Shown here piece by piece: positions 6,553 through 27,289 of a stretch of 64,000 bases of DNA (position 1 is the first letter of the stretch; each line of letters starts with the position of its first letter). The stretch is from Auanema rhodensis (Eukaryota; Animalia; Nematoda), in the NCBI GenBank assembly GCA_964057225.1, contig OZ059894.1, forward strand, positions 14,942,001 to 15,006,000, read 5' to 3'. A program made the position numbers and the translations under genes. The notes under the pieces are model-generated. The model did no database searches, was not told where the DNA came from, and worked only from the letters and a program-made list of their open reading frames with translations.

Positions 6553-8509
6553 TGTCAAATCTGTACATATGAGCATGTCATATAAGAACAGATGCTTTGA
6601 AATCATGTGCCATGCAAGCTTGAAAGTTTTACTGTTCTTTGATACAGTGTTCATAATATTTCTTTTTAATGTTTTTTCTTTCATAGCTTCGCATAGATCT
6701 TTCTATTTTTGTTTTCTCAAGTTTTATCATTTACACTTACTCATACCTTGCTGGTTTTCTCTTCGGTGCGTTTATTAGTTTTTGAAAATTCTAGTTGTGT
6801 TTCATCTCCTAACATGGAAAAGTAAATGAATTGTATTCAGTTTGAATTCTCTTTCTCTAGGATGTTTTTAGAATTCGAGGGCGGCGCATGACTAAACTGC
6901 CAATTTGCATTCTGCATAATTGGCTTCTTTTGTTTGGCGCCACGACAAATTTTTCGAATTGTTAGACTTTACAGCGGTTATGATAGTAGCATATCTTAAT
7001 GATATTTTCCGACAATTCAGTAGATTCATGTTCATAACATGTACGTGAATACTGCTTGCCCTCCCAGTAATCAGATGCACACACTGCATTCTTTGGGAGA
7101 ATTGGCCGTTCAGATAATGCTTCGTGGGAGAATACCCTGAGGGTTGGAAGGTGATTAAGATCTACATCACATGCACATGCACATACACCAAGGAATAAAC
7201 AGATAGAACAGAAAAGGAAGAACGAAGAATAGAAGATAGAAAACAATTTACACCTTATCCGGTAATGAAAACGATAATCCCAAAGGAGATGGTCATCCTT
7301 CTTTCAAAATAGTTTCGTCTCGTCAATAGTTCTATCGTATATTTGAAAGAATCAAAGTTTAACGTATATCTCCGAATCATTTAAATAGGAGTCGTCTAAG
7401 TTTTGCAACTTTTGCTTTTTTGCATATTCCTTTCAGTTCTTCGAACGTTGCTTCTTCAAAACACTCAACAACGTGCAGACCTACCACTTCCAAAAAAAAT
7501 GTCAGCTGATTGAGATATATAGAATGTTAATAAGGTCGTGACGAAAAGTTTCTTAATCTTTCCTTTCTACCTCTTCCGTCTTTTCATGCCTCTCCCTTTT
7601 TCTCTCTTTCCCAGACACTCTCGTTGCCATTTTCAACCAGTAACTACATCAGCTCACTTCCCTGTAATTGTCAATAAGGAGCCATTTCCTGTCCGTCACA
7701 TCCTCTTTTCTCTTTATTTTTCTCTCTAATGCTCTCACTTCTTCTCAATTTTCTTGCCTATCCTCGTCTCCATCTTGTCTCTCAACCCTTTCCACTCCTC
7801 TGCCGAAAGCTAATTTTCATATTACCACCCCTCCCTCCCCTTCTTCTTCCTCTCTTTATATTCCCTGCTATCTCTTACTTTTTCTTCATCTTCCTTCATT
7901 TTTCTCTTTTGCACTACTGCTAGTCACTTTCCTTGTAAAAGGAAGCCCGTTGATCGGTTTGACCACGACCTGGTCTCAGTCATCTTTGCAATAAACTCAT
8001 CATTTTCATCTTCCTGTCTTGTTTCTCTTGCGTTTGCATAGTTGATCATTTCCCGATCTTCCACCCTCTACGCTCATTTTCTTCATCACTTAATTTTTCC
8101 CTCAACCATGCTCTGATGCTTAACTTATCCACTTGGCTACCAGCCAATTTTCACCCCGACTCTTAAATTGGAAGTTGTCATTCATTATGAGTTGCTGGAA
8201 GTTTATATCTTTCTCCCATACTCATAATTTTGTATTTTAATGAATTATACCCTTTGAACGTTTTAAGCCTTATTATCATTTGTGGTTGTTGTCTAAAAGT
8301 CACTGAAATTCCAGAATATTTTTGTTTTTGTTGTTCTAGCTTTTCACATATTAGGTTGCAATCTCTGTATACATACATATATGTATATCTATGACATACT
8401 TCTGAATTCGTCTGATGTATAGCTAACATTTCTTCCCAAAGTTTAGATGATCTCAGTCGACTTTTTCCTATTCGTCTAGAGCACTGAGACCAAGAAAGCC
8501 TAATCCACT

Positions 8510-11500
8510 ATGTCAACCCGAGATTCGGAGGATGTAACTGTCATTCGATTTACCGTACCATCCACTGATGGTACGGCAACAAGATCTTCAACATCATCTT
8601 CTGCAATTTTTCAACTGCGGCTGGGTTTATGCATCGCTTTTCTGCTTATTGCTATTGGTCTATATTTGATTCTTCTTCATCCGAGTGGTTCTTCATCATC
8701 TGACGCTTCTACGGAAACCGATAATCTGCCTGTCGGAAACGTCATTCCGACTGATCTACTAGAAGATTCAGCACTGAATGTCGAAGAGCTAGAAGAATAT
8801 GAAGCAGCTTATAGTTTTCTGAACGATACCCACGATCGGCATCAGATTCCGCTGTTCAACTTGCCTTTGGTCTATATGATGGAATTAAAATTTTTTCTTC
8901 CTTGGAAACCGTGGGTTTCAAAGTATTCAAATGAATAAATTAATCTTATAAACCTATAGATCTGTGGATTTCGGTGTTGAAAACTACACTATGCATGGAA
9001 AATCACGAATGTTATTCACAGTTGCTAAAACAAACAAACGGGTACAGGTTTGTGAAAAACGTTACGTTTTTTCAAAGTTATATCCCTTACGTGAAATTTA
9101 CGTGAAATACGTGTGCCATGTCGGTTAAACGTTTACGTGGTCATATTATGTTCATTTAAAAAAATTTTTAAGCTTCTATCCGGTTGAATTTAATTTTTTT
9201 TAAATTTTGTTTTAATATTATGTCTCCAGGTGCATACTCTTGAGCTACATGTTGGAGAAGTAACATTGGAAGATGATTTTGGACGTCATGTTCCTATTGA
9301 ACAAGTATTGTTTCCCAATATACTATGAAAAAGTTATTTTTGTTTCTTTATAGATTTCTCGAGAGTATCCTCATGTACTCGATGTACATACAACTAATCT
9401 TTTAGTAGAAAATATGAACTATACTTTATTTATCTCATTTACCGGCAAAATTAGTCGTAAAAGTGGAGCAGGTATATTCTCATCTCCATATCAAGCAGAT
9501 GGTCAAGAAAGGTTTCTCTAGATATAACTAAGTTCCGGTTTAATATACTCATTGACAGACAGTTACTCTCAACACATGGTCAAACGCAACATGCTCGGCG
9601 CATTTTTCCATGCATAGACAACCCTGAGGCTAAAGCTCGATTTGAAGTGAAGGTGATTCACCCGCACGGAACAACTGCTGTTAGCAATGGAATGGAAAAC
9701 AATTCAAGTACAGATGGGTAATTTGATATACAATTTGTCATTAATCTGATAAATTCATATATTTAAGTGAATGGACAACCACATGGTTTCAACAAAGCCC
9801 CATGATGTCTACATACTTGTTTGCATTGGCAGTTAGTGACTATTTATATCGGGAAACGATTCGAAATGGTGTTAGAGTAAGTGGCTATTCATATTTTTCA
9901 AACATAGCTAACACTCAAAAGATCATATTTTCTTCTTTTAGCTCCGTGTTTATGTTCCAAGTTCAAATATTGAAGATGCTTCATTAGCTATGGAATGCCT
10001 TCCCCGTATTCTTGACTTCTATGAAGATTATTTCCAAATGCCCTGCCCTATTGACAAATTAGGTATGTGGTTTTTATATTAACAACGGATAGTTAATTTT
10101 CTTATTTTACTATCAAAAATAGAAAATGATCAGAAAAAATTCAGAACATTAATATTGAACATATATTAAACATGATTCAATTGAAAAAAATTATAATATT
10201 TCTCACCAGAAATAGGCTAGCTGGCAACCCGCATATGTTTTTCTGTCTCCGAAAATGTTTCGAGAACCTTATCAAGCTAATCCAAGTTCAATTATACGAA
10301 CTATATGTTGACAAAGTAATAACATCCAGCCCGTATGAACATTATGTTGACGATCACGCTCATTTGTAAAGATGACAACCTGAATATTAAGCATTATTGT
10401 ATCAACCATATACTAAGCACTAATAACCTGTATATCATTATGTGTATATGCTATAGCTTCAACTCCAGTCAATGATCCCAAATGATAAAGTCCTCCAGAT
10501 GAATCTGGAGAAAATGACAAAAAATTAAAATAATCCTAATCAGACAGCTCATTTTCATATATTTTGGCTGTTTGAGACATATCATTTATGAAAATCGTTA
10601 CCAATTTGAATGCCTAAACCATGACTTGCTGACAGACGATTTCTCAAAGTCAAAATCACATATTCGTTATTTCGACCAGACTCCAAGTGTTGGAATAATT
10701 TGGCAAGCTTAAAATATTATTATATTTAATGCTCATAAAATATGAAAATCAGAGAACAAATTCAAAAAAACTCACGTCTTCAGCTCGAAAAACCCAACCA
10801 GCTGCTGAATCGAGTAAGTAGGGATTCCAATGTTCATAAGGATTTGCATTATCATGTGAATAATACATAACCTAGAAAAGCAGAAATTATTCAAGAAGTT
10901 CGGTATTCATACGTATTGAGAGTATTATCTTCGTTTATTTGTTTTGAATAACTGTGTTATGGCAACAACTTACTTCATCTTCTCCTGATGTATTTCCTCC
11001 TATTCTGGCATCAGTATTCAATGGCCATAGTATATTATGACGTACAAAATCTTCATATGTTTCTCCAGAAACCTAAAATATCAAGTTCAAAAAGTTCTGA
11101 ATAACAAAGAAAAAAATTGAAGATCTGACCTTTTCGATTATTCGTCCAAGAAATACATATCCAATATTTGAATAGACAAATGCTTGTCCTGGAACATTTA
11201 TTGGTACATATGATTGAACCAGAAATTGAAGGAAATCGATTTGACTTGTTTCTATTCTGAAAATGTATTTTTATCAATCTACAAGTTGTTATGGATCAAA
11301 CCTATCGAATTCTCGTTGTAGAAGATGACTCCATCCACCTGAACTATGCTCCATTAGATGACCTATCGTCATTTGTTGTAAAAATGGGTGAACTTCAAAT
11401 GAATTCAAAATACCTAAAAACTTTGCTTTTCAAACTCAAATTGTACATAAATGAAATTCATTTATCATACCCCGTTTTCCAAAAACTAATGTTCTCATTG

Positions 11501-14500
11501 ATAATTTGCCTTGTGAGATCAATTTAGCTATTGCCATAGCCGTAAGTGTTTTCGATATCGATGCTATACGATATCGGTTAGTTGGTAAAGCCTATAAAAG
11601 GTGTTTTGAAGATGAATAATGCAATTTCTTTAGCAGAATTTCAAATTTATTACCCTTTTCTTGAGTAATAGATCGGAAAACCCATAAGCAGTACTAAAAC
11701 GAGTTTGCCCAGCTTTAGAGATGTGTATATTAATTGATGGTAATTCAAATTTTCTCATCTGAATCAATGAATGATCATTAAAGTTTTTTGTCATGTGATT
11801 TATATACGTGGGATTCTATTAAAGATTCTACATCACCCCATTCTCTAGATGAAACACCATATGATCTGGGGATTTCACGATTTCTCCATGTAAATTCACT
11901 TCCTCGCCAGATTATCCAAAATTCTTTGTTCTCTCTTGAGGACATTCTAAAAATTAAAATTATATATTTCTAAACATAGTAAATCTGGCTGTGTTAACCG
12001 TGGTTTGCTAGCGAAAAGTGCAGGTTGAAGGCTACTTTTGGACATATAGTTTGTCATTTCATTTAACAGATCCCCTTCCTGTATCTGATATCTTGAAAAT
12101 AAGAATAAAATCCAATGTTTTCAAAGTACTCTTTAAAATACCTGATGCCAAATCCTTTTCTCCAAATTGAGAGAACCATCGTTGTTTTATTTCTCACAAA
12201 AACCTGGAAAAAATAATGTTTTCATTCTTTTATGCTTGTCCGCATAAATCACGGACAAGTGTGATCCACATAAAGTTTTTTCGATTCTCTCTAGAATCTT
12301 GGCTAGTTTTTTCTATGTTAAAACAACATCTGATTCATATTTTTCCCTTTCATCTACTTTCTCCGAAAGAAAAAATCGAATTAGTGCTATGAAATCCAGT
12401 ATGATTAAACATTGGCAAAGCGCCTTATCTGTCAAATAGATGTCAAGATATGAATAGTTTAGTGACAATTATAGATTCTTGCATAATAAGATATTTTCAT
12501 ATAGAAAGAAATTGAGAGATAGAGAGAGTGATAGAGGAAAATTAAGAAAGCGATTAAGCTTGAGACAGTGAATTACCGACCTGCCAACAATCCGGAAAAT
12601 ATCCATTTTTCGTCATATTCCTTTGTACCGAATCCATCTGCTTTAGAGGCTGGGAGAGGATAATGAAGTGACGCAATCGACGAGGTTTCCTTTTCCAGAC
12701 TGCACTGTCATAAGCTCGATAATACTGATAGATCATGTCTGGCAAGACAAAAATTGCCATTTAAGGCTTCTTACCTGAACTTTTGGCCAGATCTATCCGC
12801 TGAGATGAATAAAGGATCTGCTCTGATTCCGGTCATTTTATCAGCTTCCACGTGTAGCTCGTCCAGACTCATTTCCATCTTCACAACGTAATCTCCAGAT
12901 TCCTCACGAACATTGAGAATGTAAAATTCATCTTCGAGATATGTATACGCGAGTACGGATTCTGGGTTCATCTGTTGACTCAGTAGATTCACATCATCCT
13001 TTCGTAAATGTACAAAACTAGCTGAGCCTACGGTCTTCGGAACAGCAACATATTCTGGATAAACGGTACTACCGTGTACCGGATAAACATGATATCCAGT
13101 AAAATTTCGAGTTTCCCAAATTTCGGATAATGTCAGTTTTTGAATTCTGCGATCTGAATCCAGACGCTGCTGTATCATCGACGGTGAGGTATCATTAGAG
13201 GCTTGGCAAAGAGATTGGCAGAAAAGCATAAATGATATATACACGATAAGCACATTATATAAAAATCTTGAAGAAACCCAACAGAAACTGAAATATCGCC
13301 CGCAGATAGGACCGGACCGCATGGAAATAATCCACAGAAATGTAGTCGAGCGCTAACTGTGAATATAAGGGGCTTGACGGTAGTTGCTTAGCTCAACAAC
13401 GATAACGAAAGCGATGGTTGATGGCTGATGGCTGATGATGATGTTGATGATGACGACGACGACGACAACGATGAAGGAGAAAGCTAATGGTTGTGATCAG
13501 TGTTTTCCTCCTAGCTTTCTTTCTTTCTCTGATCGACTGTCCTTGCTTCCTTCTACACTTATGCCTAACTGTTTTCGTCTCTAGATTCACATTCTATTCC
13601 AAATGCTTTATCAAGCAATCCTTTTCAAAAGAAAGCTTGTTGGTTGGTCTGGCCACTAGGATGCTTGTCAACTGATCAAGCTATATCAGGACAAAAGCTG
13701 ATTGTGTGGTGTTGGTTGTGGCCTCTAAAAACCAGCTCATAGACATTGCAGACATTATATTGAAAGGATATATGAATGACTTCACGATTAAGATTTCTAA
13801 AGTTGCAAAACACAAGCAACGACATTTCCATGAAGTGAAAAAACAAGTACAGTTTTTGAACATAGCTGTAGTTAAAGCTTTTATAATTTAAAAAAATTAA
13901 GAAAACTTTTAAAGCATTTCCTAAAACTTGGTTAAGAATGACATGATTATGATCAGAAAGTGCGAAAACTTTCTAATTTCTTAATCGATCTGATTGCATC
14001 TTAACATTGATTTGATAATGTTTACAAAAAAAAACAAAAGTGAAAGCTAGTGAGTGGCTGATGAATTTTTATCCCAAACATCTAGGATTTCATAAGGGAA
14101 ATCTTAGTAAACTGAACTTATGTTGAATTTCTTTCAGATATTTATGCTGTACCAAATTTGAAAGTTTTGGCAATGGAAAACTGGGGTTCGAGAGGATATT
14201 AAACTAATTATAACATAATTAACACATTTCAGGATTAATAATGGTTCGATCGCAACAACTTTTTTATAATCGACACGTAACTGGTCCTGCAGAGAAAAAA
14301 GTTACATTTGAAGTATTAGCTCATGAAATTGCTCATCAAGTGAGAAAAAAAAAGAAGAAAAAAAATAAACAAATTTAATTTTTAAGTGGTTCGGAAACTT
14401 GGTTACAATGAAGTGGTGGAATAATCTTTGGCTTAATGAAGGCTTTGCAACAATGATGGCTCACAAAGCAGTACTCAAACTATTTGGACCAATTGTAACG

Positions 14501-17116
14501 AAATAAAAGAATTTTAGTGACAATAGTCAATTAATATTTATCTAATTACAGTCATTGGCAAAAAGTGCTGCACAAAGTATGAGGGATGATCAAACGGTTT
14601 GTTTCATTTTCTCTGAAAAACTTGAATAATTAATTTAATAAAATTGAAATGTACTGTAAGTATGTATATACAACAACTCGTATTTTCCAAATACAATTGC
14701 TGTTATGAGGAAGATTCTTTTTAATTTTCAAACATTTGACTGTATAATCCTAGTCATAAGCAAAAATTTTTTATTTTTAGCCAGCTTCTTTTCCAATTAG
14801 TCGTCCTGACAAACCGTCATTCGATCCAGAAGAGCAATTTAGGACACAATATATTAAAGTAGAATTATTTCTTAATTTTCAAATTTGAATTATGCAATAA
14901 TTTGTAATTTAAATTCTTTTATTTAAGCCTTCTCTTCTAATGCGAGCTGTTGAAAAATTAGTTGGAGAGGAAACATTCAGGGCAGGAGTAAGCCGTTTGT
15001 TGAAGCAGTTTGCTTATAAGAATGTTGATCATACAGATCTTATGGAAGCTTTAACATAGTAAGAAGATATATATTCGTATCTTAGATCTCAAGAAAATAC
15101 TCGAGAGTTTCAGTGCCTATGATTCGTCTGCAGGAAATTTTTTTGCTGGAGAATCATTCTCATTGAATAATTTTATTGCAACATGGATCTATCAGCCAGG
15201 TTATCCTCTGCTTAATGTAACTGAACGTGAACCTGGAGTGCATGTTGTATCTCAAATAGCATTTCGGGTAATTATCTTTGTTATTCAATGTTTTCATGAA
15301 TATTCATATGAATTTTTAGTTTTTTACATCTAAAGGTCGTCTTGATAAATACCGACAATGGAAAGTTCCAATATTTCTAACACATCCTGTAACTAAAGAA
15401 AAGGAACTAAAATGGCTTTTAGAAAATGAAACAAGTTGTCAAGAACTGCTTTAAGTTTTACATAAAATTATTATTTAAGTGGCTGTTGATTTGGAAGATG
15501 ATTATGTGTTAGATGGCAACAATTTGTTCCGAATTTTGTAGTTGAAAATTCGATTTTTTTTAAAATTATAAATATTTATAGGTATTCAAAGACACATTAT
15601 GATACAATTATAGAACAACTTCATACAAGACCAGCTAAAATCCCAGAGCAAATGAGGTTTGTAGAAAATGATCAAAAGATATTCTTTTAAGAAAATTAAA
15701 ATTTTTTTTTAGATCACGATTAGTTGATGATAGCTTTACATTTGCTGAACATGGCCTTGTTTCTTATAATGTTCCTTGGAATTTAACAGCTTATATCACA
15801 TCTGAGGTTGGATTTGTTGTTTGAATTTTTTTTAAATAAAATTAAAAAATTAAACTTTAAAAATAAAATTTTTGCAGACATTTGATGCAATTCTTGATCC
15901 AACCATTATATTCAGTGCTCATATGGATCTGATAATCAGTAGACTTAAACCACATGATAGATTTGATACTGTTAAGGTAACTATACGACATAAATTATAA
16001 ATAAAAAGGTTTATATACCACCATATATGTACAATGAATTCTTGCAGAAATATTTTCATGTGGTATTAGGACATTGGTTTAATCAATGTAATGTAGAGAT
16101 CTTTGGAGGAGGTGATTCTAGTAATGCATAGTAAGAAATTGTACTTTATCCTTCATTAAAATTCAATTTTGCAGTGGAGCATGTGAAGTCATCTATAAAC
16201 GTTTATGTATATTTGGATTTCCAAATTGTATTGAAATGGCCCGCACAGAAATGAAAAAACTAATTGAAAACTGTGGTGATAGGCCATTAAGCAGTAGCTG
16301 CAATCAGTTAGCATATATAATAATTTAAAACTATAATGATGTATTTGCAGCATTCCTCAATTAGTTCGTATGCCTATATATGCGGCTATATCTAAGTATG
16401 GAGAAGAACATTTTTTCAATTTTTTGTATGAAAAATTCATCGCAGAAGAATATTCAACGGAAAGAGCTAAATTATGGGAAGGATTAGTTGGTAGTTTTAG
16501 AGCAGAGAACATTCACAGGTGATAAAAATGATTTTTTTCCTTAAAATAAAAAAAATATTTTAATGATTCCTTCAGGTTATGGTATTATTTTCTGTTCAAA
16601 AATCGACTAGCTGAACCATTTAAGCTCAGATGTTTTGATTATTCCAAGTACAAAAGCTCAATATTTCAATTAAATTAATAATTTTCTTTTCTATTTAGAC
16701 ATTATCATTGGAAAACTCATTTAATTAGCTTTATCAAGAAATATATGGATAAAATGATTGAAGAGTTAGTAAGATCATCTAATTGCTAAGCTTAAATTCA
16801 TATTTAGGCTGTCACAAGATGAGATCTTACTCATTTTCACTGTTTTGTCTCGATCCTTATTCCGTCAAGATGAGATACCAGAGGTAGTTTAAGAAGGAAA
16901 AATAATAATTATTCTTACTAATTCAATAAATTTTAGTTCAAAGAAGTAGCTGATATAGCTGCTGCTAAATTTCCTATAATAGCTACTAAGATTAAAGGTT
17001 ATACAGATAGAGTTATTGAGGTTAATAAATGGAGAGATTTAAATGGAGATTATATTATTGGTAATATATCTGCAGTTTTGGATACTTTGGAGAAAAGATT
17101 CATCGTTGATTTGTAA
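8510..17116 (+). CDS. Membrane-anchored (type II) M1 family aminopeptidase N-like metallopeptidase
   Basis: N-terminal TM helix ([19 protein letters not shown]); [18 protein letters not shown]; [10 protein letters not shown]; LAMENWG (~14157-14190); [28 protein letters not shown] (HExxH-x18-E); [10 protein letters not shown]. Large intron 10063-14137. Stop TAA at 17114-17116. Confidence 0.92.
10272..13322 (-). CDS. Secreted serine beta-lactamase/penicillin-binding-protein-like (LACT-family) protein, nested antisense in the aminopeptidase intron
   Basis: Hydrophobic signal/anchor; [16 protein letters not shown] (SxxK, ~11530-11575); [12 protein letters not shown]; [24 protein letters not shown] (YxN); LDSAAGW; YHLGSLTG (HxG). 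Multiple GT-AG introns. Stop TGA at 10274-10272. Confidence 0.88.
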
Positions 17117-17572
17117 ATGAAATGAATTTTTTATTCAAAAAAAAAAAGAAAAAAAAAGAAAAAAAAATCTTATGAACGGGAAATCAAGTATACATACATA
17201 TACATATACTATACATATTACTTTTAACTATATATATGTATGTTATGTGATTTCTTCTTAATTATATTATATTTATCTTCAATAGTAATCGTCTCATGCT
17301 TAGCATCTTCTTGTTCTTTTCATATTTTTTTTTGTTTTTTTTTTTTCAATTTCGATGTTAATTCTTGTTTCAATGGGTATGTGTTTTCCCGGATATTTTC
17401 TGATTTCCAGCATTGGTCTTTTCAATTTTCATGATCACGATTGTCTCTTTCTTCAAATTAAACATGTAAAATGAAGTTTTTTTTTCAAAAATTTATAGAA
17501 TTCAGGAGATATGGCACATATGTATATGTATATTTCATTATGAATAAATATAATTAGTAAATAGTGAGATTT

Positions 17573-18210
17573 TTAGTTCTTCTTATGTTGTTTCTTTTGG
17601 CTTCTCTTAGCTTGAGCAGCAACGTAGTTAAGTCCTCCAAAAGTACGAGCAGTAGCGCAGAAGTTGTTCATGTGAAGCTAAACATGTGTTGTTAGCCAAT
17701 CAAACTTAATTATTGTTAAATCTTACTCCACAGGCTGGAAGTTTCTTAGCAGCATTGTTGGCACACTTGCAGAAATTATCGTCACAGACCTTTTGAGGCT
17801 TTCCTTGGTTGTAACAACGAGAGTGCTTGACGCAACACATGTTTACAACTCCTGGAAAAATTAGCATTTTTTTGAATCTTTTCTTGTTTCTCCATTTCAA
17901 TTAGAAGACTGATAGTAATAGTTTGGTTAACTTGAAAATCGTATTATCGAAAAATCGGTCAATTGTTCGTTCTTATGAACAGGATTTCTCGATTTTTCTC
18001 AAAACAACACAGCTTTTTTTAAATTGAACAAGATAAAAATGATAATTCTTAGTTATATTATATAATATACTTACCAAGTCTTCCTTTACAGTCATTTTTT
18101 AAAAGAGCCTCAGCAAATCCTTGTTGAAGCTTGTCATTTCCGCAAGCAAAGTTAGCATAAGCTACGGAAGCGCAAACAGCTAGAAGGAGTACAGTAGCAA
18201 ACGAGTTCAT
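17573..18210 (-). CDS. Small secreted phospholipase A2-like protein (nematode type), 3 exons
   Basis: Signal peptide MNSFATVLLAVCASVAYA, then FACG..DC..VNMCCVKHSRCY..CDDNFCKC..C..FCATARTFG, the PLA2-like Cys pattern. Exons 18210-18075, 17851-17727, 17677-17573. Confidence 0.85.
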
Positions 18211-19448
18211 AATTCTAAAAAAATATTTGTTTACATTTCAACATCAAATAAGCATGAAATCAGAAAAATAATATAGAGATTGCCGTCGAGAGAGCTGATC
18301 CATGTGGGGAATAAACAGCCCGCGGCTATTTTGATGACTTCATTCTCAAGAATGCCTATATAGGGGATATAGGATAGCCTTCTTTTCACATCCAGCCCCT
18401 TTTACGAGATTGTTCAAGGTGAATTCATTACCCGATAGCCACTCAATATCTATCATGTTTAATCTCTAGTCAATCTTTCAGAAATACGAAATCCACTAAA
18501 CTGTCCTTTCATTATCGAGCGGATTGTCTATGATTCTCTTGAAAATATTCAGTATTTCTCATCGAATTTTCTCGTAATCATCCGGTACATTTTGTAAAAT
18601 TAGCAAAATTGCTTTGTTATCAATGGAATGCTTGACTAAAAGATATTTGAAACAGCTATAAGAAGATATCAGATAATCTAGACAAGATGTCTGAAAGAAC
18701 TTTTTCTATTCATAGTCTAGTCTCGGCTAGCAACTTAAGTGAACAAAGAATATCTTTTTATGTATGAAACCAAAATCCAATGATAAACATCAATGCTTAC
18801 CGTAATTATTGAAAATAAGATAAAAAATCAAAAAAGATAAATGCTATGTGTGTTAGATAAAAGAATTTTTTTTTGCTTTTCACAAATGATTTATCTTAAT
18901 CAGCTACATCATCAGAATCAGTTATATAATATGCTTTATGCTTCATACTTGTTTTCATATGAATTATGGTAAAAACATTAAACTTGTGTATGATTCATCA
19001 TGTATGTATATACATATTTGTGCATATCATATATGACTTATGAAGTATAAAAATCAAAAAATTATATAAAAATGAAGAATAAATTATAAAATTCATTTGT
19101 CTTATATGTCAATTACAATCTTATATTACTTGGCTTATTTGACTATAATAATAATTATAACTAGATGTATGCATATGTCAATGATTGTAGTAGTTTTATA
19201 TAATTTTTAGAAAACATTTTCAAAATAATCTCTAGATCATAATTTTCAGTAATCATGCTTTTTTCTTTTTTTCTTAATTTTAAGCTTTAAAATTATATTT
19301 TTATATTCATATTTCTATTCCCATTTTCTTTTTTTTTTGTAAAATTAATTAATAGTCCTGATAATTTGATAAGAAGATATCCGCTATAACTTGATATGTG
19401 ATCAAACATTATATGTACATGTAAGTGTGTATGTTGTATAAGTTGTAT

Positions 19449-19938
19449 AGAAAGTATTGACGCTAAACCAAACTTTTTGGCCATTTCAACTTTTCTCAAT
19501 TTACACCACTTTTCAGAAATTTTTGAAGCAATTTTGTAAACAAAACAGTAAATTTTAAAAAAAGTTTTGTTTTTGCCCATCATCGAGCCTGATCAGGTCG
19601 AAACCATTTTGCCCAAATACAGTAAAACAGCAGAAAAATAAAAATTCCAGACTTTCGAGGTGTTTTTATGAGAAACACTTTATCAGATGAAGATATGTTG
19701 GAATTGTAAATCTTAACTCTTCAAATAGTAAAGGGAATCATTGAGTTTGTTAATCTAAGAAAAACAAAGAATGATGTTACTTTGACTCTTTCGGATTAAA
19801 TTCTCCAATAAAACTTCAAAAATATCTAAAAAATGATAAAAACAAACAAATAGATTGTTTAACATTTCAAATACAAAAACACATTATTGCAGATACTATT
19901 ACTTATTATTTCGAAAATTATTGGAATTTCATGACTTC
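19449..19938 (+). repeat. Left inverted arm (490 bp)
   Basis: AGAAAGTATTGACGCTAAACC...GGAATTTCATGACTTC; no mismatch to the right arm seen by eye. Confidence 0.95.
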
Positions 19939-19960
19939 TTACTTTTAAAATTACTTTTCC
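19644..19960 (+). pseudogene. Decayed Maverick adenain-like cysteine protease (left copy)
   Basis: IPDFRGVFMRNTL / GIVNLNSSNSKGNH*VC* / CYFDSFGL (19778-19795) / FQIQ / HYCRYYYLLF corresponds to the H-W, YFDSFG, Q and C motifs of Polinton PRO. Contains stops and frameshifts. Confidence 0.8.
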
Positions 19961-20028
19961 GACGAAACGACGAAAATTACTATTTTATAACTCCTAAACT
20001 TATATTAGTTCAGGTTTGATAACAATTC

Positions 20029-21398
20029 CTAAAACCCTGGTTTGATATGAACAATACCAAATGCCATAGTATGACTGTCTTCTAAAATATAACGCTTATA
20101 TTCTGTCAGAACTACATCTTTATTTAGAGTTACTTTATACTGATATTGAGTATAAATTTGATGTTTCACACTTATGATTGTGAATTATTTCTTTCTAACA
20201 ATAGTTTTGTCAAAGAGACATTTTTTATAATACCTTTACTTTTTTTTTGATTTCATCATCAGGTTTCATTTTTTTTGGAGCATTAGGATTCTCTTTTTCT
20301 TTCTGTTTTATTTTTTGTAAAGTTCTATGAAGGATTTGCGGGTTTCTTCACCAACTTTCAAAGCATATTGTTTTGGCTTCAACGCTTCCATTTCTTCCAT
20401 TATCAATCCACTGAGTTCATTCTTAAATTTTCTGACAACTTTCTTATTCTCATCGTTATACAGTACTTGATCTTTTGGATAATCACTGAAATTAAAATTT
20501 CTTCCAAAAGAGATATATTTTTCAATATCTTTGTATACATCTTCAGTCTGGATGTTATATGTATATGAGACTGTCAGTATCTTGATAACCCAGTTTAATA
20601 TTTACAAATCCATACTTCTTCTGTATTATATTGTAATGAAAGTCATACCTCAACCACTTACTTTATTCCAAAATAGCAAAACCAACATGGTTTTATCAAG
20701 AACAATATATGTTTTCTCCATTTCTATGGCTACCAACTATTTATTATACATGATAGTTCTATTATAATTTGTTTTAGAAGCCAACTTGACTATTTTATTT
20801 TTATCTGTAATGAATCTAACATCTACCCTTTCTCTCACATTTTCCATAAGCTTTCTCAAATACAGCATTAACTTATGAAATCTTTCTCAAAATCATTTTT
20901 AGCGTTTTTTCTGAAACTACTATTAATTTCAATATAAGGAGCTAACCAACAAGATTCATCAAATTTGATGATTCTTTTTGGTTTTGTTTTTTCTTTCTTT
21001 TTCGAATTTTCTTTAACTTTATTCCAAGTTCTAAAGTGGGAAGTCTTCACTATAAAAACTTATATACCTTTCTATAAAACCCTTTATATATTCATCAGAT
21101 TTAGTAATTGCATTATTGATTCTGTCCAGGATATCATCTTATTCAAATTGGAATATCTAGTAGGTAACGTTTGATTCATTACCAATCCATATAAATTATT
21201 AGCAAAATACATCAGCATGGAATTGATTAATCAAAGTTCGGAGTGTATTTATTACCTTAGAGTATCTTTGAACAGCATTAACCATTCCACCTCTAATTCC
21301 TTTTTCAACCATCGAGTATTTTTCAACATCTTGAAGCACTTCTAATTCTACTTTGGTCTTTTTCAATATAGCATCTCAAGCTAAACCTGGGCTTGTAT
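20029..21398 (-). pseudogene. Decayed protein-primed family B DNA polymerase (Maverick PolB), C-terminal half
   Basis: TSPGLA*DAILKKTKVELEVL..EKGIRGG..ANNLYG; WLAPYIEIN..RKNAKNDFEKDF; MENVRERVDVRF; YDFHY..GYQDTDSLIY (20568-20590); NKKVVRKFKNEL; YKKCLF; KRYILEDSHTMAFG. Many frameshifts and stops. Confidence 0.9.
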
Positions 21399-21693
21399 GA
21401 CGCAACGCGACACGCGGCGCTTTTGGCTAGAGAGAAAGTCGTTTTCCCTCTTTGTCTCTGGTTTCCTATGCATTGATTCATTACATATACTAACAACACA
21501 ATAAATACAATTGATTAGCTTTTCTAGTTTAGGATGTATGTGGTTAGGACCGGGGAATGATTCATTCGAGGTTAAATTTAGAATAACCGTTCATAGATGG
21601 TGAACTTTTGAGTAACAATATTCTTTGTGTCAGCTTTTAACATGTCACTTTTCTATTGCTCTACTATTTTTATTTTGCTTTATTTTATAGAAT

Positions 21694-22226
21694 ATGAGAT
21701 TGCAAGATGATGTTCGAGTTCAAAAGTTGTTGGATAAGGCAACGATTGAAAACCTTTTGAAAAATTTTTTAGAGAAATCTATGGAGCGATCTAGCAAATG
21801 GAAATTGGGTTGAAGAACGCTTTAGCCAAATATGATAAGAAAGAGAATTTACATGAGGTGTTTTTGAAGGATTGTCTGAAGGTGATTTGCGACGTAGAAA
21901 AATCTTCATCATGGTAAAAGCCATACTTCTGAAACTCTTCTGGTAGTGTCGAAGTTTTTTGTCAAAGTTGGTGATTATCGAATTGCTTGCGAGATTCTTT
22001 GGGGTTTTGAGTCGCTTTCGATTCAAGGTAATTTTCATGAATTTCTTGGTATTTATGTAATGTATCATTTTCAGAATTTATCAAAAAGCACAAGCTTAGT
22101 GTAGAGCTTCACTCCCAAGAGTCTAAAAGGCGCTTTGCGTGTACTAAAGAATTCATTCAACAGCTTAGTGAGTTTAAAATGTCCGATGAAAAGAAAACGG
22201 AATCGGAAAAACTCTATTTCTATTAA
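21694..22226 (+). pseudogene. Intron-containing cellular-type cargo gene of unknown function inside the element (disrupted)
   Basis: TTTTATAG acceptor then ATG at 21694; probable 47-nt intron 21726-21772; clear 47-nt GTAATT..TTTCAG intron 22028-22074. Reading ..QMEIGLKNALAKYDKKENLHEVFLKDCLKVICDVEK/HGKSHTSETLLVVSKFFVKVGDYRIACEILWGFESLSIQEFIKKHKL..KLYFY*. In-frame TAG at 21792-21794 and a frameshift in the A-run at 21898-21902. Confidence 0.65.
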
Positions 22227-22279
22227 AGCTTGACACTTGTTTAATTTCTGTATGATAAGAATGATTAAAAAATTACTCA

Positions 22280-22435
22280 AACATTGATAGTAGTTGATGA
22301 GAACAAAATTACCGGAGATCTTAAAAATGAAATTATTGAAAACGAAAGACAAAAAAAAAGTTTACAAGTTTGATTATCATAAAAGGATCGAGTGATACAA
22401 TGCCTTACGGATTTATTGATACCCTAAGGAATTAA
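22280..22435 (+). pseudogene. Second, different Maverick PolB extreme C-terminal fragment
   Basis: KKVYKFDYHKRI then, after a frameshift, DTMPYGFIDTLRN*. This resembles the K.Y...YDKR....TLPYG(Y/F) terminus of Polinton PolB and differs from the left-hand PolB terminus. Confidence 0.6.
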
Positions 22436-22453
22436 AGGTAACACGGTTTCAAC

Positions 22454-22943
22454 GAAGTCATGAAATTCCAATAATTTTCGAAATAATAAGTAATAGTATC
22501 TGCAATAATGTGTTTTTGTATTTGAAATGTTAAACAATCTATTTGTTTGTTTTTATCATTTTTTAGATATTTTTGAAGTTTTATTGGAGAATTTAATCCG
22601 AAAGAGTCAAAGTAACATCATTCTTTGTTTTTCTTAGATTAACAAACTCAATGATTCCCTTTACTATTTGAAGAGTTAAGATTTACAATTCCAACATATC
22701 TTCATCTGATAAAGTGTTTCTCATAAAAACACCTCGAAAGTCTGGAATTTTTATTTTTCTGCTGTTTTACTGTATTTGGGCAAAATGGTTTCGACCTGAT
22801 CAGGCTCGATGATGGGCAAAAACAAAACTTTTTTTAAAATTTACTGTTTTGTTTACAAAATTGCTTCAAAAATTTCTGAAAAGTGGTGTAAATTGAGAAA
22901 AGTTGAAATGGCCAAAAAGTTTGGTTTAGCGTCAATACTTTCT
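22454..22943 (-). repeat. Right inverted arm (490 bp), including a second copy of the protease pseudogene (~22454-22748)
   Basis: Reverse complement of 19449-19938. Confidence 0.95.
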
Positions 22944-24235
22944 TGTATAATTCATATTTCTCTATTTATTTACTATATATATATAATACAATATATATAT
23001 TATATTATATATAGTTATAGTGTTTAATCAAGTACATACACATAGTTAAAGAAATTTTTTTATTCATTCCTGCTTTATTATTACCGGAACTGGAGCTAGC
23101 TACATCACAGAAACAACGAATCTGAGGACTAGATTTCGTAAAAAAAAAGAAAAAATGTTGTTCATATTAGAAATAATAAAGATGTCATCATATACATAAT
23201 ATATACATATGTATTTAATATGTATATATTCTATAATGAACAAAAAAAAAGAAAAATTCACAGAGAATTATATATAGAATACAGAGAAATGGAAGACAGA
23301 ATAAAAAAAAGAGAAAAAAGCGACAAAAGAAAAAAATTCAAAACGATTATAGTAATATAAATTTTTAATCATTATTACTATAATTCTGCAAATCAAAAAA
23401 AAGCTGAAAAGAAAACAAAAAAATGGAAACAAACTATTAGAAGTAACTGAAAGAAAAAAAGAATAATTGGAAAGCGTTGTATGCAAGAACTAAGCAAACT
23501 ATATATAAATTCAAATATATATTTTATAATTAAACTTATGGAAAAATTATATTTTAGCTGATGCTTTTGGGAGTATAATGTCTTTCACCGGAAATCCTAA
23601 CGAGTGATCTTGATTGAATATTGTGACTAAGTTGGAAAAAATGAAAATGTTTTAGCAACTTGGAAATCAGAGATACGAGATCATCACAGGAGAAATAGAG
23701 GCATGCGAGATGAGAACCATTGGGACATTATGCTGTTAATCAGCTAAATGCGGTAATTGGGTAGTTTAAAAGGTTGTTTAAAAGGCTTAAATGACTAGAT
23801 TCTAGAACTGAACAATCTGACTCGGTAATACAGATGAACGCATTCTGGCAAAAAGCGATTTGACAACAAGAAAGGAAAGGTTATGACGTCAGTTCGTGGT
23901 GCTATTAAGGTAGTATTGTATGTCAATCATACAAAAGCATGTGCTGTAAAAGATCGAAGAAAGATTGAAAGGAGTACTAGATTAAAGAACATCAAATAAC
24001 GATAATGATGACCAGAATGATATTGATGAAGACAAAATATGCAGAATGAGTATTGAAATTGTGCATAGATGATGTAGATCACGTCATGAATAATGTGAGA
24101 TTAGATGTATTTAAGAGGATATACATATACATATATTGTATCCTTGAAAGATATATATATATATATATATATTCCTTATTTAGATGTTATTTATTGAAAA
24201 AAAGATTATCAGAAGACGTCATGATTCTATGATAA

Positions 24236-24712: not shown

Positions 24713-27289
24713 CTATAATAAAAAAGCACCAACTTGGCCACGTACTTGACGTTGAAGCTTTCTCTTACGTTGCAGACGATCGCATTGACATCTGGGCGGA
24801 TCACAGCAAGGTGTTATCTGAAAGAGAAAGGAGAATAACCAGTGATAAGAAAATGAATCATAAATTAAAATAGAATAATTATGTGGAACGGTTGAATAAT
24901 TTGTTCTTTTGATCTTAGCTATCAAGCTATTCAAGTTTTGAAAGAATATTTTCAAGGACATACCGTTTTATTGAATCGTCCCAACTGAGCTGGAGCTGGA
25001 ACAAGTGATTGTCTATGCTGGAATAGCACACTCATTCCTAGCTGTCGAATCTGGAAATTATAATTCAAGTTTTAAAAAAATTAACAAGTTTTATAATGAA
25101 AAACCTCAAGAGATTCGCCATTGTCCTCGAGTGGATAACGTTCAAACGGATCTTTGGTTAAATCGAATATGAGAGGAGGAGAATGAGTTATAAGTTGAGA
25201 ATCAGGGCAAGTTTGAGATACATACCTATAAATAAGAAATATAATTTATATTATACAAGATTTTAAGAAATAACATACCAATCATTGCGTGGTTTACCAT
25301 TCGGACAGAAATATTCCAGATTTGGATCGATTGTTTGATTTAAAAAGATCGGGGAAGTTTTATAATGAATCTGCAAGTTTGATATGAATTGATTGTCTTA
25401 ACATCAAATTAAAACCTTGAAACTTCCAAGTCTAATAGCCATTAGATGAGTATTACAGTAGTATATTATAGGTCGACGAAGACCAAGATAACCAGGCTTT
25501 TCAACTGAAACTCCACGAATTTCATCCCAGATGTTTGTACCGTCAAGGTAACGATCATCCTAAAATAATTTTAATTAAATAAGTTATAATAATATTCTTT
25601 TATTCAACCTCCAAGTCACATACTGCTGGTTGGATATCTCGGAATGTTTGGTATAAGTCCATGCTGGAGACAACTTCATGGCTAACTCGGCCACTTTTTA
25701 CATTTCCTGGTTGCCACATAATCATTGGAATCCGGAAGCCACCTTCGAAACTGTTCGATTTTCCTCCTGAACTTTTATTTTTGCAAAAGGCTATGACGAA
25801 TAAATAAACCTTTCAATCCCGCAGTAGATCCTCCATTCAAGCAAAGCTCAACATGTGGGCCATGATCAGACATCAGAACAACTAAGGTGTTTTCCGCTAT
25901 TCCGGCAGACACAATTGAATCCAATACTTCACCTACTGCCCAAGACATTTCATTAATAGAATCTCCATAGATTCCTTTAAAAGTGAATTTTGGTCAATCT
26001 TTTTTGTGAAATCTCTTTACCTCTGGGTGATGTTCCACGAAAACGAGGACTTGCAAACTGAGTGCTGTGGACATGAGGAAAAGATAAATAAAAGAAGAAT
26101 GGTCTTTCGTGTTGATCCTAATTAGAAATTTATATAAAAATTTAAAAATTTGAAAATGTTACAGTAGCCATCCGTAATCGTAGAAAACGATGCCAATCCT
26201 CAACCAAATTCTCGGTCATATCGTCAAATCTCAATGGCTGTTGAACAATCTCATCCCCATCATAGAGGAAACACATAGCTGGATCAGGACCATCAGCATA
26301 GTATTCCTGAAGAAAATGTCATTCTGAGAATATACTCATGAAAAGAAATACCTGAGTTGTATCACATTGCCAGACATTTGTAAATGGTAAATTAATTCCA
26401 ACCCAGTCAAATCCTCTTCTTGATGGTAAATGCTTACCATCTGATGAATTTTTCTCATTTATTCCCAAGTGCCATTTTCCAACCATTCCCGTTGAATATC
26501 CTGATTAGAATCAAATATTATAATACAGATATGTCTGTATTTACAACTTCCTACCTGCCTTTTTAAGCATTTCAGCCATTGTAATCTCTTTTTTTGGTAA
26601 GCCTCCCATGTCATAAGGTAAAAATACTCGACGACCTCCAACAACTCCTAGTCGAATAGGAAGTCGGCCTGCAAATTCAAATGTTGAAATTAATTGTTTA
26701 AAACCAAAATCAATGTCTATATATAGAATTATTTAATTATAGTAAAGTGACAAGTAACATTTACTATTTAAATTTAAAATTGTGGTTTTAAATATTTCAT
26801 TTGTTTATATAATACCCGTCATGAATCCTGCTCTGCTTGGACTACACATGCTATCAGCTGAATATGATTGAGTGAACCGGGTGCCTTCAGCAGCCATTCG
26901 ATCTACCTGAAATCAAGTTCATTTTTTAATTATTCATTGAAACATCTGTAGGAATTATCAAGAGAAATACCACATGAATTATATTACCTCTGTGTATTCT
27001 TGAGTTGGGTGCCCATAGGACGCAATGTCGCCGTAACCTGAAGAAAAACAAGATTATTTCTTAAAAAACTTTGTTTGAACAATTATTTTTGAACGTTCTA
27101 TTGTTTTAATGATTATTTATAAAAGTTTTAAACTTTTTTCAAGAATGTTTCTTGAATATCTTTAGATAATGAGTACATACCTAAATCGTCGACCATCAGA
27201 ATCACAATATTAGGACGAGCAGGGGACGGTGGCTGAGTACAGCCACTTTCGACTGCTCGAAAGTAAAATAATGATAGAAGAATTAACAT
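24713..27289 (-). CDS. sul-2: Arylsulfatase (sulfatase family, SUL-2-like)
   Basis: Signal peptide; [16 protein letters not shown]; [12 protein letters not shown] (formylglycine CxPxR motif); GKWHLG; [12 protein letters not shown]; SDHGP; [14 protein letters not shown]; [13 protein letters not shown]; terminal [11 protein letters not shown] exon. The symbol is assigned by resemblance. Confidence 0.9.

What the first reader, a model, noticed from the sequence alone, without database searches (positions are those of the whole stretch)
19444..22948. Compact Maverick-derived element: dead genes but fresh ends, suggesting a mobile non-autonomous cargo carrier
Seen: a 3.5-kb unit with apparently identical 490-bp inverted arms, AG...CT termini and an intact TSD (TGTAT), yet every internal gene is broken. 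Established: Mavericks are normally about 15-20 kb, have AG..CT ends and 5-6-bp TSDs, and nematode Mavericks have been shown to carry host cargo genes between species. Inference: this miniature derivative transposed after its genes decayed, using integrase and PolB supplied in trans. That would make it a MITE/Pack-like Maverick satellite able to shuttle cellular sequence. This is the best candidate for an undescribed system in the window.
Basis: partly seen in the sequence, partly recalled or inferred. Interest (0 to 1): 0.85.

Follow-up and report, generated by a model that had tools for sequence, protein, structure and literature searches.

The report
Decayed mini-Maverick with re-matched ends
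A 3.5-kb leftover of a Maverick virus-like transposon, in what is likely a nematode genome, keeps two perfectly matching 490-base ends although its polymerase and protease genes are broken; the ends were likely re-matched by copying from each other in place, and a late jump with outside help remains possible but unshown.

Summary
The structure is real: arms 19449-19938 and 22454-22943 are 490/490 identical, end AG...CT and are flanked by TGTAT. It is the two ends of a Maverick/Polinton with the middle deleted: the 3' half of pPolB (7 frameshifts, 5 stops), an adenain protease gene inside each arm, and a GC-richer stretch with a likely 47-nt intron at the usual cargo position. Both protease copies carry the same 3 frameshifts and 3 stops, while independent ageing predicts about 30-150 arm differences, so the arms were made identical after decay. 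That does not show a late jump: in 4 laid runs the element looks single-copy, shows no empty site, and related polymerase copies lack two of its breaks. Best reading (0.55): a decayed remnant whose arms are homogenised in place. Rival (0.33): re-integration in trans after decay. Protease genes inside TIRs and polB-less mobile polintons are already in print; a MITE/Pack-like family is not supported.

The parts
19444..19448 (.). Left target-site duplication TGTAT (part of a 7-bp direct repeat 19443-19449)
19449..19938 (+). Left inverted arm, 490 bp, starts AG; about 115-175 bp non-coding tip plus most of a protease gene
19626..19956 (+). Adenain-type (Peptidase C5-like) maturation protease pseudogene, left copy; frameshifts near 19686, 19702, 19878, stops near 19744, 19753, 19774; start probably some 20 codons further out
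   Evidence: tblastn with L001 protease E 3e-14, L052 E 7e-11; L001 protease is Pfam PF00770; break count
20056..21399 (-). [quoted passage not shown]
   Evidence: best hits C. briggsae CBG05187 E 7e-59, CBG15088 E 6e-44
21400..21690 (+). GC-richer non-coding stretch (35% GC) ending in a T-rich acceptor-like site just before an ATG; likely upstream region of the cargo gene (inferred)
21694..22226 (+). Putative decayed cellular-type cargo gene of unknown family, 3' end toward the right arm; needs about two frame changes; end uncertain
   Evidence: 34.5% GC against 28% in polymerase and arms; intron signal; no homolog
22028..22074 (+). Predicted 47-nt spliceosomal intron (AG|GTAA...TTTTCAG) whose phase joins two open frames
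   Evidence: 1 such pair in the 1031-bp middle, 0 in the polymerase; chance 0.009 in 2000 resamples
22430..22766 (-). Protease pseudogene, right copy, same 3 frameshifts and 3 stops; its last codons run past the arm
   Evidence: E 2e-15
22454..22943 (-). Right inverted arm, identical to the left, ends CT
22944..22948 (.). Right target-site duplication TGTAT

Best explanation
This is the two ends of a Maverick/Polinton, in a likely nematode host, that has lost its middle and has broken polymerase and protease genes, and whose two arms were likely kept identical by gene conversion between the close inverted copies while it stayed at this site. Shown: arms, TSD, polymerase and protease remnants, shared breaks in both arms. 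Inferred: a full-length, cargo-carrying parent (protease inside both TIRs; polymerase at one end and cargo at the other, both pointing to a TIR) integrated here and made the TSD; an internal deletion removed integrase, capsids, ATPase, fusogen and the polymerase 5' half; the rest drifted to about 3-15% substitution; stem-loop pairing of the arms (2.5-kb loop) let repair copy one arm onto the other up to a heterology at the inner edge. It is likely inert.
For: Maverick identity. The polymerase/protease convergent pair is native: it occurs in L001 (stops abutting) and in the C. briggsae gene model CBG05187, which runs from PolB into the protease antisense strand. TIR joining polymerase 3' end and cargo 3' end, and GC-rich intron-bearing cargo next to a TIR, are described for nematode Mavericks (10.1101/2022.07.12.499685). 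Arms reset after decay: same 6 breaks in both copies; 29-149 substitutions and 5-10 indels expected between independently ageing arms, 0 of 490 seen. No sign of amplification: interior depth 0.91 (X8) and 0.67 (X9) of flank, arm 1.44 and 1.79 of interior; 0 of 6 listed joints skip the element and 0 of 24 shown loose ends lie at the outer arm end; related polymerase contigs in the same runs differ at many sites and show gaps at about two of the element's frameshift places, so they appear not to share those breaks. Homogenisation of close inverted duplicates has been proposed for selfing C. elegans (PMC3194840) and conversion between TE copies under 10 kb apart is seen in flies (PMC11226609).
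Against: Identity runs to the very last base and the TSD is intact; in-place conversion would tend to erode the outer edge (intact TSD alone has probability 0.19-0.74). Conversion itself was not observed. Only 4 of 11 runs were laid, all contigs, with no differences in the flanks either, so they cannot date the insertion; 129 loose ends and 168 pieces were not shown. Contig depth is a rough proxy for copy number. The weak homology past the arm (14 of 16 aligned bases after a 12-bp gap, 1.4% of interior 22-mers score as high) may instead be a local duplication (D2). That intact relatives carry the protease in both TIRs was not testable here (none of the 82 loci had such arms).
Confidence: 0.55

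Rival explanations
1. Non-autonomous re-integration: the already decayed mini-element was excised or copied, its arms were reset during panhandle-type replication by a helper's pPolB, and a helper integrase inserted it here recently, making the TSD.
For: Perfect identity to the terminal base plus intact TSD; arms reset within the last few percent of the decay time (under 0.3% per arm against about 7%); related polymerase and protease copies that might include a helper exist in the same runs; polB-less polintons that kept moving are reported in butterflies (10.1101/2025.02.07.637071).
Against: No donor or sibling copy by depth, no empty site, related copies appear not to share two breaks; no helper with the same terminus found (genome not held); replication need not erase arm differences (recalled model).
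Confidence: 0.33
2. Assembly or polishing artefact: the second arm or its perfect identity was made by the assembler.
For: The right outer junction is not covered in any of 4 laid runs, and X8's contig crosses the left outer junction without a fork; contigs drop small variants.
Against: Forks at the inner arm end in two studies (X8, X9), arm depth above interior; no contig fits the right arm better than the left; the protease frame continues naturally across the right inner junction and a TSD flanks both ends.
Confidence: 0.07
3. Another TIR transposon (e.g. a Pack-MULE, reading a 7-bp duplication and G...C ends) captured Maverick pieces, as a MULE captured Maverick cargo in C. briggsae.
For: The 7-bp reading is symmetric; precedent for MULE capture (10.1101/2022.07.12.499685).
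Against: The arms are mostly protease gene in its native place next to the polymerase; no transposase remnant; MULE duplications are usually 8-11 bp (recalled).
Confidence: 0.04

Closest known systems
Nematode Mavericks/Polintons (C. briggsae Polinton group; 10.1101/2022.07.12.499685; PMC10748475)
   Same: pPolB 61% and 53% identical to C. briggsae CBG05187 and CBG15088 over the aligned codons; adenain protease; TIRs within 100-1500 bp and 5-8 bp TSD; GC-richer, intron-bearing cargo next to one TIR; most nematode copies are incomplete or pseudogenised. The polymerase is likely of the pPolB2 type (its full-length relative L001 has the HNH/Endonuclease VII domain; inferred).
   Different: 3.5 kb instead of 13-25 kb; no integrase, capsid, ATPase or fusogen; cargo matches no searched family; arms identical although they hold a dead gene.
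Butterfly polintons with gene-bearing TIRs and polB-less mobile derivatives (10.1101/2025.02.07.637071)
   Same: Adenain inside both TIRs; loss of a working polB.
   Different: Those are long (12 kb or more), multi-copy and polymorphic; this one is small, looks single-copy, with every gene broken.
C. elegans Polinton remnants and TIR-only pieces at eri-6/7 (PMC11414722)
   Same: Remnants from the pPolB end with TIRs and without integrase; deletion after or before insertion left open there too.
   Different: Here both ends and a TSD are kept, and the site is intergenic.
MITEs / Pack-type non-autonomous TIR elements
   Same: TIRs, TSD, no coding capacity, a captured-looking gene piece.
   Different: No amplification or variable cargo seen; 3.5 kb.

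Membership tests
Maverick/Polinton | [quoted passage not shown] | tested here: met
   3' half present as pseudogene, E 7e-59 to CBG05187
Maverick/Polinton | Retrovirus-like integrase | tested here: not met
   No Pfam hit in six frames; no match of L002's ORFs other than polymerase and protease; deleted, so not an autonomous member
Maverick/Polinton | Adenovirus-like protease | tested here: met
   Two broken copies, E 2e-15 and 3e-14, query is PF00770
Maverick/Polinton | Capsid proteins and packaging ATPase | tested here: not met
   No room and no hit
Maverick/Polinton | TIRs of 100-1500 bp and 5-8 bp TSD (PMC10748475); AG...CT ends (recalled) | tested here: met
   490 bp, TGTAT, AG...CT
Nematode Maverick cargo region | GC-richer, intron-bearing cellular gene next to one TIR | tested here: inconclusive
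   35% against 28% GC, one 47-nt intron signal P 0.009; no homolog found, WASP/KRMA not recognised
pPolB2 class | HNH domain in the polymerase | not testable with these tools
   That part is deleted; present in relative L001
Non-autonomous mobile element (MITE/Pack-like) | Several near-identical copies with different TSDs | tested here: not met
   Depth ratios near one interior and two arms; rough, contigs only; genome not held
Non-autonomous mobile element (MITE/Pack-like) | Empty-site allele | tested here: inconclusive
   0 of 6 joints in 4 of 11 runs; only 27 bp of right flank laid, and runs show no divergence
Non-autonomous mobile element (MITE/Pack-like) | Autonomous helper with the same termini | not testable with these tools
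   Diverged polymerase and protease copies exist; termini unknown; 42 exact 16-mer matches in IMG/VR, none longer than 20 bp at the tip

The most novel reading that the evidence does not exclude
A gene-dead 3.5-kb mini-Maverick that still jumped with a helper's integrase and polymerase, carrying an intron-bearing cellular gene piece: the smallest satellite form of the nematode gene-transfer vehicle, defining the cis-sequences that suffice for mobility.
Probability: 0.3. Interest if true: 0.6.

Novelty: new member of a known kind. Interest (0 to 1): 0.3.

Why it matters
Either way it is a clean warning that identical TIRs do not date a Maverick insertion: a dead gene inside both arms carries the same six breaks, so the arms were reset after decay. 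If in-place conversion did it, this is a small natural test case for homogenisation of close inverted repeats in nematodes. If a helper moved it, it would be a minimal Maverick satellite and would show that cargo can travel without any working Maverick gene. The cargo stretch may also belong to a cargo family other than WASP and KRMA.

Tried and rejected
Whole genome not held, so no direct copy search. Pfam gave nothing for 14 ORF pieces or the six read-through frames of the element. Protease homolog search used a mostly out-of-frame reading and is uninformative. Cargo: phmmer over 1.84 billion representatives gave 2 hits, both repeat-summed artefacts (a fish Ig-repeat protein, a leafhopper repeat protein); word search in longer proteins gave 0 of 54 candidates (proteins under 197 aa were not searched, so this is weak); the PDB hit is a designed helical protein, rejected; tblastx against 82 loci gave nothing; a language-model search of the cargo is left open. 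Terminal 16-mer: 42 IMG/VR matches, all chance. No terminal protease-bearing arms in the fetched loci of 3 kb or more. Homology past the arm is not significant in an unanchored test (62.6% of shuffles as high). X11 (share 0.10) is too thin to use; zero depth over the right arm is a mapping effect and proves nothing. The host species was not established; a candidate genus was looked up in papers only. The Atlas search of a host exon gave no useful taxon. Kapitonov and Jurka 2006 and Thomas 2006 are not held and are used from recall only. Earlier scan notes: none. Literature searches found no report of a gene-dead mini-Maverick with identical arms; subscription journals and Repbase were not searched, and Repbase N-type Polinton names exist (Polinton-N1A_NV seen in PMC11296320).
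Full report
Observation. The window holds one long inverted repeat: 19449-19938 and 22454-22943, 490 of 490 bases complementary, 2515 bp apart. The ends read AG...CT and TGTAT flanks both sides; a 5-mer match has a chance of about 0.6-0.9% from flank composition, and the direct repeat is in fact 7 bp (TTGTATA) overlapping the terminal bases, so 5-, 6- and 7-bp readings are all possible. The unit lies between host genes: an M1 aminopeptidase with a nested beta-lactamase-domain gene and a small secreted-type gene to the left, an arylsulfatase to the right (the small gene by eye). Short introns and the closest hits point to a nematode host (inferred); the genome is not held.

Anatomy. [quoted passage not shown] A frameshift-aware alignment counts 7 frameshifts and 5 stops against P0003, 8 and 3 against P0002, 7 and 6 against L001. 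Each arm holds most of an adenain protease gene (E 3e-14 and 2e-15 to the L001 protease; that query is Pfam PF00770; aligned from 19626), so only about 115-175 bp of the arm is non-coding. Polymerase and protease converge, as in L001 and in the CBG05187 locus; this arrangement was seen in 1 of the 4 loci with a protease among 82 fetched. No integrase, capsid or ATPase remnant was found. The polymerase is likely pPolB2-type, since its full-length relative has the HNH domain (10.1101/2023.08.22.554363). The stretch 21400-22226 is 35% GC against 28% in polymerase and arms and has one donor-acceptor pair 47 nt apart (22028-22074; 0 in the polymerase; P 0.009 by resampling) whose phase joins two open frames, plus an acceptor-like site just before an ATG at 21694 (consensus motifs recalled). 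No homolog was found. Widen et al. describe exactly this kind of GC-richer, intron-bearing cargo next to one TIR, and a TIR joining the polymerase 3' end to the cargo 3' end (10.1101/2022.07.12.499685). The element is therefore the two ends of a cargo-carrying Maverick with some 10 kb or more deleted from the middle (inferred).

The paradox is real. Both protease copies carry the same 3 frameshifts and 3 stops. From 8 stops in 508 codons, neutral divergence is about 7% (95% range 3-15%); independently ageing arms would differ at 29-149 sites plus 5-10 indels; 0 of 490 differ, which bounds divergence at 0.3% per arm. The arms were thus made identical long after decay began. The TSD says little: it survives such decay with probability 0.19-0.74.

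Evidence on mobility. Eleven runs of 3 studies hold the stretch, 9 with half of its words or more; 4 were laid, all contigs. None of 6 joints skips the element, none of the 24 shown loose ends (129 not shown) lies at the outer arm end, and the listed long pieces of X8, X9 and X10 have 0-1 other letters in flank and element alike, so these runs cannot date it. Contigs of X8 and X9 break at the inner arm end, as two continuations require; X8 bridges the left outer junction without a fork; the right outer junction is unseen. Depth gives interior/flank 0.91 and 0.67, arm/interior 1.44 and 1.79: about one element, not a family, within the limits of contig depth. Diverged polymerase and protease copies exist in the same runs (up to 5 contigs at 21309 in X8) and show gaps at about two of the element's frameshift places, so they appear to be independent relatives rather than siblings. 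One X9 contig leaves the left arm at 19557 with a long loose end; whether it is another Maverick tip is unknown. The terminal 16-mer found only chance matches in IMG/VR.

Mechanism. Two ways reset arms: conversion between the close inverted copies in place, or replication and re-integration with a helper. For the first: single copy, no empty site, an inner edge that stops at a 12-bp gap with weak homology beyond (possibly a local duplication), and proposals of such homogenisation in selfing C. elegans (PMC3194840) and of short-range TE conversion in flies (PMC11226609). For the second: identity to the last base with an intact TSD, possible helpers, and polB-less polintons that stayed mobile in butterflies (10.1101/2025.02.07.637071). 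My weighing is 0.55 to 0.33, with 0.07 for artefact and 0.04 for capture by another TIR element; these are judgements, not computed.

Relation to what is known. Protease genes inside polinton TIRs, pseudogenised and partial nematode Mavericks and cargo next to a TIR are all in print. It works like a Maverick remnant; it fails autonomous membership (no integrase or capsids) and fails the multi-copy test for a MITE/Pack-like family. Nine searches found no gene-dead mini-Maverick with identical arms.

What I saw of each paper: 10.1101/2025.02.07.637071 passages and section 12; 10.1101/2022.07.12.499685 passages and section 11; 10.1101/2023.08.22.554363 abstract, passages, results parts 1-2 of 3 and its journal version PMC10748475 passages and supplement searches, which hold no sequences; PMC11414722 passages and a supplement search; PMC11296320, PMC6431247, PMC3014272, PMC11226609 passages; PMC3194840 passages and section 19. 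Figures and bioRxiv supplements were not seen; they may show whether intact nematode Mavericks carry the protease in both TIRs and what their termini are. The AG...CT rule, the racket/panhandle model and MULE duplication lengths are recalled.

Noticed in passing
window 19433-19449 and 22944-22951: The left flank holds a further TGTAT just before the TSD; the site without the element would read as a 9-bp tandem pair (slippage, or an older footprint).
   Followed up: partly
window 8504-17300 (+), 9900-12200 (-), 12771-13352 (-): An M1 aminopeptidase gene spread over many small exons, with a beta-lactamase-domain gene (Pfam E 7e-20) and a 193-codon open frame of no known family on the opposite strand inside its span.
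   Followed up: partly
window 24800-26500 (-): Arylsulfatase gene (Pfam Sulfatase and Sulfatase_C), the right-hand neighbour.
   Followed up: partly
window 17700-18250 (-): Small signal-peptide, cysteine-rich gene, the left-hand neighbour; no Pfam hit.
   Followed up: no
runs X9, X10 on window 19235, 19591, 19594, 19785: Several contig ends fall on GATC or GANTC sites (4 of 9 checked), as in proximity-ligation libraries; their loose ends should be read with care.
   Followed up: partly
L072 528-713 and 3325-3473, L093 1691-2157 and 743-1005, L107 11160-11326, L108 10482-10889, L115 2782-2867: Internal fold-back palindromes of 90-480 bp (71-90% paired) in metagenome loci that carry related polymerases.
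   Followed up: no
P0002 (C. briggsae CBG05187): The public gene model appears to be a mis-prediction that joins a decayed Maverick polymerase to the antisense strand of the protease.
   Followed up: partly
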